NCBI GenBank assembly: GCA_964016885.1
Contig: OZ024763.1
Coordinates: forward strand, 28,644,001-28,708,000
From: Eledone cirrhosa
Lineage: Eukaryota
Length of the DNA stretch: 64,000 bases
Direction of reading: 5' to 3'
The notes beneath the pieces were generated by a model. That model was not told the DNA's origin and did not search any database. It worked only from the letters and a program-made list of their open reading frames with translations. Made by a program: the position numbers and the translations under genes. Positions 36,078-38,035 of this stretch are shown here, piece after piece; the first letter of the stretch is position 1; each line of letters begins with the position of its first letter.

Positions 36078-36268
36078 TCCCGGATTCAAGCGAGGGTAAC
36101 CACAGTATTGCATAGTAGAGTATATACAAACATTTAATATAGAAATGGCTTCCAGTGGACTAGAACTATTTCATTCGAAGGAAATCACTGGGAAAGGTTT
36201 CCTGGCGATTTCCTTCGGATCTAGCTGTCGAAATGCGCGGAGCTCAATCGTCGGATTCCTGACTCTTA
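36078..36268. mobile_element. Diverged hybrid of the family B arm and the family A half-ribozyme
   Basis: ggactagaactatttcattcg (family B, minus) followed by ttc-CTGGCGA...gtc-GAAA-tgcgcggagctcaatcg-TC-gga (family A-like). Confidence 0.55.
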
Positions 36269-36270
36269 TG

Positions 36271-36475: not shown

Positions 36476-36810
36476 TTTTTTCACTCGGAGAATATAAAAT
36501 TCCCGAGTTCAAATTACGAACTGGCGCTATTCAAAATTATTCCCGAGATGAGAATGAATGATGTGGAAGCAATTCTGTCCAGTGCCGTGTGTAAAGATAG
36601 AAGGCAGAGGCAGGGAGGTCAATCTACTACCACTATAAATAGCAGCAGTCAGAACGACCAAATTTTATCTTGACCAAGAGGAGAATAATAATAATAAAGT
36701 ATATATCCCTACACGCAGAAAGCGTCCAGGGACACATGTATTGTCCAACCATATGTATATGTATATATATATATGTATATATATATTTAAGTATATCTCG
36801 AGCTCAATCA

Positions 36811-37046
36811 GGGGTAGCCACAGTAAGTAAGGTACTCAATACAAAGCAGACTGTAAATATTTAATATAGAAAGGCTTCTACAGGACTAGAACTGTTTCAT
36901 TCGGGAGAAATCATCAGGAAATCAAATCATCAGGCTTCGTGATGATTCCTCCCGAATGAAACAGTTCTAATCCTGTAGTAACCATTTCTATATTAAATAT
37001 TTATACTGTGCTATGTATTGAGTACCTTACTTACTAGGGTTACCCT
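36811..37046. mobile_element. Family B palindromic element with back-to-back hammerheads
   Basis: About 110-bp inverted arms; the minus-strand ribozyme at 36874-36922 has an intact CTGATGA/GAAA/GTA core, the plus copy has GTGATGA. Confidence 0.8.
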
Positions 37047-37207
37047 AGAAGGAAACCGGGATAAACTTATATATCCAGTTAGACAGAGAGAGGTAGTGTT
37101 TTATCTGTAAATAAGTGTGTTTTTGAGTGTGAGTGTGCGGAATTGCGTATTTGTAACTACATGTATTAATCTGAGTGAGTGTGGGCCTGAGTGTGTGTGT
37201 GTGTGTC

Positions 37208-37262
<55 letters not shown>

Positions 37263-37426
37263 ATGTGTGTGTGTGTGGACTTGATGAGGGGAGGGGGGGG
37301 GGCTTTCAAACAAGGAATTTCTTTCGGAAAGTTGATTGTCAAAAGCATCTGACTCATCATTAAATGTCAGAGGTTAAAAGTGTTTTGAAAAGGAAATATC
37401 TGAGATATATATAAAATCAATAACTC

Positions 37427-37483
<57 letters not shown>

Positions 37484-37751
37484 GATATGTGTGTGTGTGT
37501 GTGTGTGTGTGTATTTGTGTGAGTATATATGTATGTATCTGCGCATATATATATATATATATATGTATGTATATACACATATATGTATAGATGAGTATAT
37601 GTGTGTATACATATATATATATACACACTTATATATGTGTGTGTATGTATATATACATTTTTTACACAATTTTCTCAGCTATTGTTTATAATGATCGGCC
37701 ATTACTTTTGTCATTTCTGTGCTGGGACTTTATATACACACACACACACAT

Positions 37752-37810
<59 letters not shown>

Positions 37811-37817
37811 TAAGTTA

Positions 37818-38001
37818 TTCCGGGTTGAATCGGAGGTAACCACAGTAAGTAAGGTACTCAATACATAGCAGAGTATAAAAGTTTTAATATAGATGAGATT
37901 CTACAGGACTAGAACTGTTTCATTCTTTAGAAATCATCAGGAGCCAGATTCCTGATGATTTCTAAGGAATGAAACAGTTCTAGTCCTGTAGAATCCCATC
38001 T

Positions 38002-38003
<2 letters not shown>
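37818..38003. mobile_element. Family B palindromic element with back-to-back hammerheads, in (TA)n
   Basis: Inverted repeat 37889-38003; ribozyme motifs at 37897-37945 (-) and 37947-37995 (+). Confidence 0.85.
37947..37995 (+). ncRNA. Type I hammerhead ribozyme (family B)
   Basis: gattc-CTGATGA-tttc-taag-gaat-GAAA-cag-ttctagtc-ctg-TA-gaatc. Confidence 0.75.

Positions 38004-38035
<32 letters not shown>

What the first reader, a model, noticed from the sequence alone, without database searches (positions are those of the whole stretch)
36811..38003. Family B: back-to-back hammerheads forming palindromes, one ribozyme per strand
Seen at 36811-37046, 37818-38003 and 45482-45669: two complete ribozymes joined at their 5' ends with a spacer of a few nt. 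Within a locus the two arms share variants (stem II ctcccg, ctaa(a/g)g, cttacg) that differ between loci. Inference: each palindrome is regenerated at insertion by self-copying or homogenised afterwards; transcription in either direction gives one ribozyme plus its antisense. The arm shares gtactcaatac with family A, suggesting a common mobilising element.
Basis: partly seen in the sequence, partly recalled or inferred. Interest (0 to 1): 0.7.

Follow-up and report, generated by a model that had tools for sequence, protein, structure and literature searches.

The report
Capped-end stubs of Penelope retroelement
These three mirror-image repeats are very short insertions of a Penelope-type jumping gene, a known layout, and most of their ribozyme halves are broken; an extra G at the start of many copies suggests both arms are likely copied separately from the capped front end of the element's RNA and then joined head to head.

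Summary
The palindromes are real, but only 1 of their 6 arms is a complete hammerhead. Family B is the terminal repeat (pLTR) of a Hydra-type Penelope-like retrotransposon. It has at least 28,157 exact core matches and 4,948 close head-to-head pairs in this genome, and three copies run on into an RT plus GIY-YIG ORF. An inverted 5′ copy with a one-sided tail is a published layout, and this scan noted it before on other DNA of this genome.

The arms are made at each insertion. They are not homogenised later (rare alleles: 1 shared, 53 one-armed) and not snap-back copies, because either arm can hold sequence the other lacks. Of 71 palindromes, 64 pair a long arm with a short arm. 5′ ends pile up 6 nt before the catalytic core, 30 nt after a TATA box. 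There, 192 of 369 copies carry an untemplated G, against 1 of 100 at a control position, as expected from copying an mRNA cap. The likely route is two cDNAs primed from both ends of a cut and run off a capped sense RNA, which argues against a published antisense self-priming model. No cleavage or RNA data were obtained.

The parts
36800..36920 (-). B1 left arm: long (tailed) pLTR stub; C3 of the hammerhead core at 36917; 5′ end 3 nt before the core, so stem I is cut short
36921..36932 (.). B1 junction: 12-nt insert resembling the arm's own core region (inferred templated insertion during end joining)
   Evidence: sequence; overlap -12
36933..37068 (+). B1 right arm: long (tailed) stub starting at the inferred transcription start (GGCTTC, 6 nt before the core); core C3 changed to G at 36939, stem I broken
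37809..37942 (-). B2 left arm: long (tailed) stub; intact core (C3 at 37940) but only 2 bp of stem I; abuts (TA)n
37941..38005 (+). B2 right arm: short stub, the only complete type I hammerhead motif of the six (stem I 37947-37951 with 37991-37995; core 37952-37958; predicted cut after GUA at 37990); G at 37941 may be the cap-derived base but is shared with the left arm; abuts (TA)n
37843..37880 (-). Tail hairpin (ACTC...GAGT) holding the gtactcaatac motif shared with family A; begins a few nt past the position where short arms end
45480..45609 (-). B3 left arm: long (tailed), older copy; C3 at 45607; G12 lost
45613..45670 (+). B3 right arm: short; C3 at 45615; U4 changed to A; abuts (TA)n
36079..36220 (-).

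Best explanation
Family B palindromes are insertion stubs of a Penelope-like retrotransposon with Hydra-clade motifs, and each is likely made from two separate cDNAs copied off the capped 5′ end of the element's sense RNA and joined head to head inside a (TA)n target.

Shown: (1) the arm is the hammerhead-bearing terminal repeat directly upstream of an RT plus GIY-YIG ORF; (2) arm 3′ ends fall at two sites (+53 to +62 and +126 to +132 from C3), usually one of each per palindrome; (3) 5′ ends pile up at -5/-6, the first base of stem I, 30 nt after TATAAATA; (4) an untemplated G often stands at -7; (5) junctions show microhomology or short inserts and vary by locus; (6) arms diverge independently afterwards.

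Inferred: RNA polymerase II starts at -6 and the G is the copied cap; the element's protein cuts both strands and primes reverse transcription from both ends at two internal start sites on uncleaved RNA, probably one RNA or one dominant source; the two cDNA ends anneal and are repaired. The stubs lack the TATA box and are predicted to be inert as ribozymes when both arms are transcribed.
For: Parent element: L106, L107 and L108 run from the arm into an ORF with RWRA, SDKT, YRDD, CxCx5C, a GIY-YIG-like region, CxxC and CxH; Pfam GIY-YIG E 2e-4, 21.9 bits, just below its 22.6 cut-off. These motifs match the Hydra description in PMC8557442 section 11.

Abundance: 28,157 core matches; 4,948 close head-to-head pairs.

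Two 3′ ends: 64 of 71 palindromes are long+short against 35 expected (p 5e-13); 34 of 37 in the set not selected on the junction. 3′ ends of 80 young arms cluster at +53 (11), +61/62 (23) and +129/130 (22).

5′ end: furthest 5′ end is -5 or -6 in 37 of 70 loci. TATA lies at -36 in most promoter-bearing copies listed, and I saw no G at -7 among them (read by eye).

Extra G: 192 of 369 copies that start at -6 next to (TA)n against 1 of the first 100 of 170 that start at the core (hand count). It holds in 41 of 57 copies whose own stem I cannot supply the G (hand count). It is on 14 of 26 arms, and on both arms in 6 of 13 palindromes, where both arms reach -6 (hand count). A passage of PMC11702581 reads such a G as mRNA capping in L1 insertions.

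Independent formation: 49 distinct junctions among 68; recurrent ones occur on different subfamilies. One junction shared by 10 loci occurs with opposite long/short polarity, 3 vs 4 among those seen.

In vitro precedent: a Penelope protein cut and extended both strands, started at two internal sites, used uncleaved RNA and was predicted to be a dimer (PMC11167929, parts 1-2 read).
Against: No RNA evidence for the start site or cap was obtained; both rest on DNA signatures. An RT could add G without a cap (PMC13000458 reports non-templated G and T at R2 junctions; passage), and only one control position was tested. The predicted shift of the start to -10 in the longer-spaced subfamily is unproven: 1 of 4 solo copies has G, and the 15 of 24 in palindromes are confounded by the other arm.

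B1 has two long arms and 6 of 71 have two short arms. 5′-end calls are noisy in old copies, and 21 of 64 were ties. The second batch of loci was selected for intact cores within 30 nt, which inflates the 5′ pile-up. Two pairs of loci (L129/L130, L138/L139) have identical arms and may be duplicates. Ten of 62 loci, including B1 and B3, were dropped from the distance test for indels. The tree has only 53 columns. Pfam found no RT domain in the parent ORF, and clade membership rests on motifs, not a tree. The tail (~70 nt) is longer than the published 30-40 bp.
Confidence: 0.72

Rival explanations
1. Self-priming or snap-back: one cDNA, or an antisense template as proposed for rotifer Penelopes, folds back and copies itself to give the second arm.
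For: Proposed in PMC3846280 (Discussion read) to explain head-to-head junction palindromes. Arms share subfamily variants (loop II identical in 87% within vs 12% between loci). Many junctions have 2-5 nt of microhomology.
Against: A self-copy must be nested in its template. In 26 of 64 palindromes the short arm holds 5′ sequence that the long arm lacks, while the long arm holds the tail; B2 is such a case. Both arms end in the extra G with a 1-2 nt centre in several loci, leaving no loop. The G sits at the predicted sense start.
Confidence: 0.12
2. The palindrome itself is a non-autonomous element that is copied as a unit, so a few founder palindromes seeded the rest.
For: Some junctions recur: 7 groups of 2-6 loci, leaving out one spurious 7-nt group, and one junction in 10 of 23 loci.
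Against: 49 distinct junctions among 68; the same junction on different subfamilies and with opposite long/short polarity; long and short arms do not form lineages; the TATA box is absent from the stubs.
Confidence: 0.07
3. Arms are kept alike after insertion by gene conversion or hairpin repair.
For: Within-locus distance is a third of between-locus distance.
Against: Rare alleles are shared by both arms once and confined to one arm 53 times in 52 loci; the old copies B1 and B3 have arms only 89% alike.
Confidence: 0.03
4. The pairs are functional bidirectional ribozyme cassettes, or dsRNA sources kept by the host.
For: Stem I covaries among source copies (3 of 6 pairs with changes on both sides), so the motif is under structural selection in the parent. 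Read-through RNA would form a ~55-bp hairpin.
Against: 5 of 6 arms here and most sampled arms are broken; the hairpin outcompetes the ribozyme fold by 69 kcal/mol; mutations accumulate per arm.
Confidence: 0.06

Closest known systems
Hydra clade of C-terminal EN+ Penelope-like elements (Craig et al. 2021, PMC8557442; section 11, passages and supplement rows seen)
   Same: RWx, DKT, CxCx5C, CxxC and CxH motifs; short ORF; (TA)n target. Listed Hydra hammerheads include ones with an extra U after A9 and before GAA (Hydra-1_aJap, Hydra-1_cRog) and one with the same ACAG/CTGT stem III (Hydra-1_aMil).
   Different: Not one of the listed consensus families: its short motifs are absent from the supplement and the Hydra-1_oBim hammerhead differs. 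FGFK is present here. The family is dominated by 60-135-nt stubs.
Inverted 5′-truncated pLTR with one-sided tail of EN+ PLEs (PMC8557442 Fig. 2 legend; PMC3846280 passages and Discussion)
   Same: Head-to-head inverted copy at the 5′ end, tail on one arm, TATA and Inr-like motif in the pLTR, junction palindromes.
   Different: Here the whole insertion is often just the two arms; the tail is ~70 nt rather than 30-40; an untemplated G marks the 5′ end. The published explanation is self-priming on an antisense template, which these data disfavour.
Hammerheads of PLEs (Cervera and De la Peña 2014, PMC4209133; abstract, Results and Discussion read)
   Same: Type I hammerhead in the pLTR; pairs on opposite strands ~100-700 bp apart were already noted in Schistosoma; low activity in vitro.
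   Different: This motif has a 4-bp stem III with an 8-nt loop and a 3-bp stem II, and lacks the G10.1-C11.1 pair that paper finds conserved; pairs here are mostly within 30 nt.
Anolis Poseidon PAc in vitro (PMC11167929, parts 1-2 of 4 read)
   Same: Two internal RT start sites define the tail; both strands cut and extended; uncleaved RNA used; AT-rich target.
   Different: A different clade; the parts read do not link this to inverted arms or to a capped 5′ end.
L1 twin priming (PMC11702581, passages)
   Same: Both target ends prime reverse transcription, ends are joined by microhomology, and an extra G marks full-length 5′ ends.
   Different: L1 inverted pieces meet end to end within 1-10 bp on the template; here both arms cover the same stretch and both can run to the RNA 5′ end.

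Membership tests
EN+ Penelope-like element | Single ORF with RT and C-terminal GIY-YIG endonuclease linked to the repeat | tested here: met
   L106-L108 ORFs directly 3′ of the arm with YRDD and a GIY-YIG-like region; Pfam GIY-YIG E 2e-4, below cut-off; no RVT_1 hit on the ORF itself; homolog P0085 hits RVT_1 at E 9e-6. All three copies are frameshifted.
EN+ Penelope-like element | pLTR with hammerhead; inverted 5′-truncated copy; tail on one end | tested here: met
   64 of 71 long+short palindromes; longer inversions of the same build in L031, L054 and L114
EN+ Penelope-like element | Same repeat at both ends of one full-length copy (partial tandem) | tested here: inconclusive
   L106-L108 carry one hammerhead each, upstream of the ORF; the 3′ region runs into microsatellite and other inserts
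Hydra clade | RWK motif, DKG changed to DKT, CxCx5C linker, CxxC and CxH flanking the conserved E and N | tested here: met
   RWRA, SDKT, CNCLNKEAC, CDLC, CMH against the description; RWR rather than RWK in this copy, RWK in 4 of 5 aligned homologs
Hydra clade | No CCHH motif in the endonuclease | tested here: inconclusive
   Two cysteines lie between GIY and YIG in this family, but the pair is absent from all 5 aligned homologs
Hydra clade | Insertion into (TA)n | tested here: met
   108 of 122 arms have a TA run within the 3′ flank window; no background control was run in this TA-rich genome
Hydra clade | Phylogenetic placement of the RT with named Hydra proteins | not tested
   Named Hydra proteins were seen in the supplement but were not available to the alignment tools; resemblance by eye only
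Type I hammerhead ribozyme | Core CUGANGA, GAAA, NUH and three stems with covariation | tested here: met
   In 14 source-type copies 96.7% of cells pair and 3 stem I pairs change on both sides; slid controls 33-48%. Met by 1 of 6 window arms. No Rfam match at gathering score in 5 loci.
Type I hammerhead ribozyme | G10.1-C11.1 pair at the base of stem II | tested here: not met
   U and U flank a 3-bp stem II; two published Hydra hammerheads share this
Type I hammerhead ribozyme | Self-cleavage | not testable with these tools
   Needs an assay; the monomer hammerhead fold is -3.6 against an MFE of -10.4 kcal/mol
Non-LTR retrozyme | Head-to-tail tandem hammerhead units | tested here: not met
   Window loci are head-to-head pairs; one related locus, L027, is a tandem array of 78-nt units

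The most novel reading that the evidence does not exclude
Penelope-like elements insert by symmetric double priming: both ends of a cut prime reverse transcription at two fixed internal sites on one capped, uncleaved sense RNA that begins at the first base of hammerhead stem I, both cDNAs run off the cap, and their ends are joined. Thousands of stubs in this genome would record that reaction at base resolution and settle the sense-versus-antisense question for these telomerase relatives.
Probability: 0.55. Interest if true: 0.7.

Novelty: new member of a known kind. Interest (0 to 1): 0.48.

Why it matters
How Penelope-like elements make their inverted ends is stated as unsolved (PMC8557442 Discussion passages; PMC3846280 Discussion). 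This family gives a large natural sample with three testable signatures: one long plus one short arm, a 5′ stop 30 nt after a TATA box, and an extra G there. Together they favour two cDNAs from a capped sense RNA over antisense self-priming, and they name the templates and start sites for an in vitro test. As ribozyme devices the palindromes are ordinary debris. Thousands of ~55-bp hairpins could feed RNA editing or small-RNA pathways, but nothing here tests that.

Tried and rejected
Rfam: the window scan's best 150 of 437 hits were microsatellite-driven miRNA-type matches, none a hammerhead; no gathering-score match in 5 loci. PDB sequence search: nothing. Pfam on the RT part: nothing. tblastn of the parent ORF against the window and against 30 family A loci: nothing, so family A's mobiliser is unresolved.

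Sequencing runs: no RNA holder listed. Contigs of three runs laid on the locus only showed that the repeat is abundant.

My first clade label, Neptune, was dropped for Hydra after reading the motif definitions. The idea that the extra G comes from an inverted stem I fragment was tested and rejected. A start-site shift to -10 stayed inconclusive. cDNA run-off at the ribozyme cut (+39) was considered, but the latest 5′ starts seen in the 75 loci were +15 to +17, apart from three tail-only pieces; the anchor pattern itself spans +15 to +41, so copies starting at +39 could not have been sampled. A second copy of the tail hairpin past the long end, claimed for other families in earlier notes, was not recognisable in three parent copies; a different small hairpin (GCAC/GTGC) lies there.

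Literature: searches showed no paper reporting a cap-type G on Penelope inverted arms. Most hits were seen as listings only, subscription papers are not held, and the supplements of PMC11167929 and PMC3846280 were not examined.

Full report
Observation. The three loci are real inverted repeats with 97/109, 54/56 and 50/56 identity between arms; B2 folds into one long hairpin, z -14.85. Each arm reads as a type I hammerhead: stem I, CUGAUGA, a 3-bp stem II flanked by U and U, GAAA, a 4-bp stem III, and a GUA cut triplet. Positions below count from C3 of the core as 0. Only B2's right arm is complete; the other five have a core change or a truncated stem I. B2 and B3 have a ~70-nt tail on one arm, B1 on both. 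A fourth decayed copy lies at 36079-36220.

What it belongs to. The window lies in a 3.0-Gb animal genome; earlier notes call it octopus-like, which I did not check. A 27-nt core pattern has 28,157 exact matches, and 4,948 places hold two cores head to head within 30 nt. I fetched 75 stretches covering the first 100 listed matches; 74 of their 122 arms lie in 37 palindromes. About nine solo arms share identical flanks and belong to another repeat, so solos are overcounted. [quoted passage not shown] Pfam gives GIY-YIG E 2e-4, just under its cut-off, and nothing for the RT part. At least 1,273 homologs exist, and one of six scanned hits RVT_1. The motifs RWRA, SDKT, CxCx5C, CxxC and CxH and the (TA)n target match the Hydra clade of PMC8557442. 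Published Hydra hammerheads share the U/U flanks and, in one case, the stem III. No tree with named proteins was built. Stem I covaries among 14 source-type copies; these are related rows, so this counts few events.

How the arms relate. Adding 36 loci selected for close intact cores and four promoter-bearing copies gave 71 palindromes after dropping 3 false pairings. 64 have one long and one short arm, against 35 expected by chance; in the unselected set 34 of 37. 3′ ends cluster at +53, +61/62 and +129/130, and 28 of 48 solo arms are also short, so the short end is not a product of inversion. In 52 ungapped loci (10 dropped, B1 and B3 among them) arms differ by 2.3 of 53 nt within and 7.0 between loci, with no long or short lineage. 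Rare alleles are shared by both arms once and one-armed 53 times, which rules against homogenisation. No palindrome mixes the two commonest young loops, TAAA (23 arms) and TAAT (18 arms), which fits one RNA or one dominant source. The short arm reaches further 5′ in 26 of 64, the long arm in 17, with 21 ties. Neither arm can then be a nested copy of the other; B2 is such a case. Junctions are 49 distinct among 68, often with 2-nt microhomology, and recur on different subfamilies. One junction found at 10 of 23 loci occurs with both long/short polarities.

Where the 5′ ends fall. The furthest 5′ end is -5 or -6 in 37 of 70 loci; in the unselected set 35 of 39 raw pairs have both anchors within 57 nt. 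Promoter-bearing copies mostly have TATAAATA at -36 and C at -7 (read by eye), which puts a start at -6, the first base of stem I. Among copies that begin at -6 next to (TA)n, 192 of 369 have G at -7. At the control position -1, 1 of the first 100 listed of 170 does (hand count). Because the G could be an inverted piece of stem I in one subfamily, I tested copies where it cannot be: 41 of 57 have G (hand count). In 13 palindromes with both arms reaching -6, 14 of 26 arms have it, both arms in 6 loci (hand count). An extra G is read as the mRNA cap in L1 insertions (PMC11702581 passage). Non-templated G is also reported for R2 in vitro, so a cap is inferred, not shown. The predicted shift to -10 in B2's subfamily stayed inconclusive.

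Mechanism. The likely route: a capped sense RNA starts at stem I; the element's protein cuts a (TA)n target on both strands; each end primes at one of two internal sites; both cDNAs run through the uncut ribozyme to the RNA 5′ end; the ends anneal and are repaired. Each step has precedent in the Anolis in vitro work, which found two start sites, both strands extended and uncleaved template. It conflicts with self-priming on an antisense template, proposed for the same layout in PMC3846280. Read-through RNA meets the antisense arm first in either direction, and the ribozyme fold is predicted 69 kcal/mol above the hairpin, so working ribozymes on both strands are unlikely. No usable RNA data were found.

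Family A. It has the same long+short, head-to-head build in most of 30 loci, read by eye. The shared gtactcaatac is one strand of a small tail hairpin predicted in both families. No family A locus showed an ORF like family B's, so a common mobiliser is neither shown nor excluded.

Novelty. The layout is published, as are opposite-strand hammerhead pairs in Penelope debris. Earlier scan notes on this genome reached the same picture, including two-copy joining and a start at stem I; these are unchecked leads, and my reading was formed before I saw them. Papers seen: PMC8557442 (passages, section 11, supplement rows), PMC11167929 (parts 1-2 of 4), PMC4209133 (abstract, Results, Discussion), PMC3846280 (passages, Discussion), bioRxiv 10.64898/2026.07.22.740005 (part 1 of 5), PMC11702581, PMC13000458 and PMC7229834 (passages), PMC7353768 (term search, no hit). 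Verdict: a new family of a known kind, ordinary as a ribozyme finding, useful as a record of an unsolved insertion mechanism.

Noticed in passing
L027 (G000:C28:30757868-30760926): Head-to-tail array of the family B hammerhead, 37 units detected with a 77-79-nt period, filling the 3-kb locus; looks like a retrozyme-type satellite derived from this pLTR.
   Followed up: partly
window 2140-2340, 8611-8810, 45263-45455, 47988-48280: Family A palindromes with the same long+short head-to-head build in (TA)n. They show GAAAC and a stem but no CUGANGA at the junction, so only the back half of a hammerhead; no ORF found in 30 related loci.
   Followed up: partly
window 45263-45770: Family A palindrome, family B3 palindrome and another family A tail lie within 500 nt, separated by short TA runs, suggesting repeated insertion into the same microsatellite.
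   Followed up: no
window 36200-36270: The decayed fourth family B copy is joined directly to a family A-like stretch.
   Followed up: no
L107:348-848 and L106:1321-3290: Fragments of other Penelope-like ORFs (GIY-YIG with cysteine pairs; RT pieces) next to the family B parent copies; L107's lies in a ~400-nt inverted repeat.
   Followed up: no
L031, L033, L034, L035, L040, L046, L055, L059, L094: A family B short arm with identical flanks at nine places on contig C1, so it was carried inside another repeat.
   Followed up: no
L114:2493-5410: Long version of the same build: two ~430-nt arms, long and short, around an expanded microsatellite with nested inserts; the pLTR itself contains a microsatellite.
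   Followed up: partly
L085, L087: Family B arms ending in (CAT)n rather than (TA)n.
   Followed up: no
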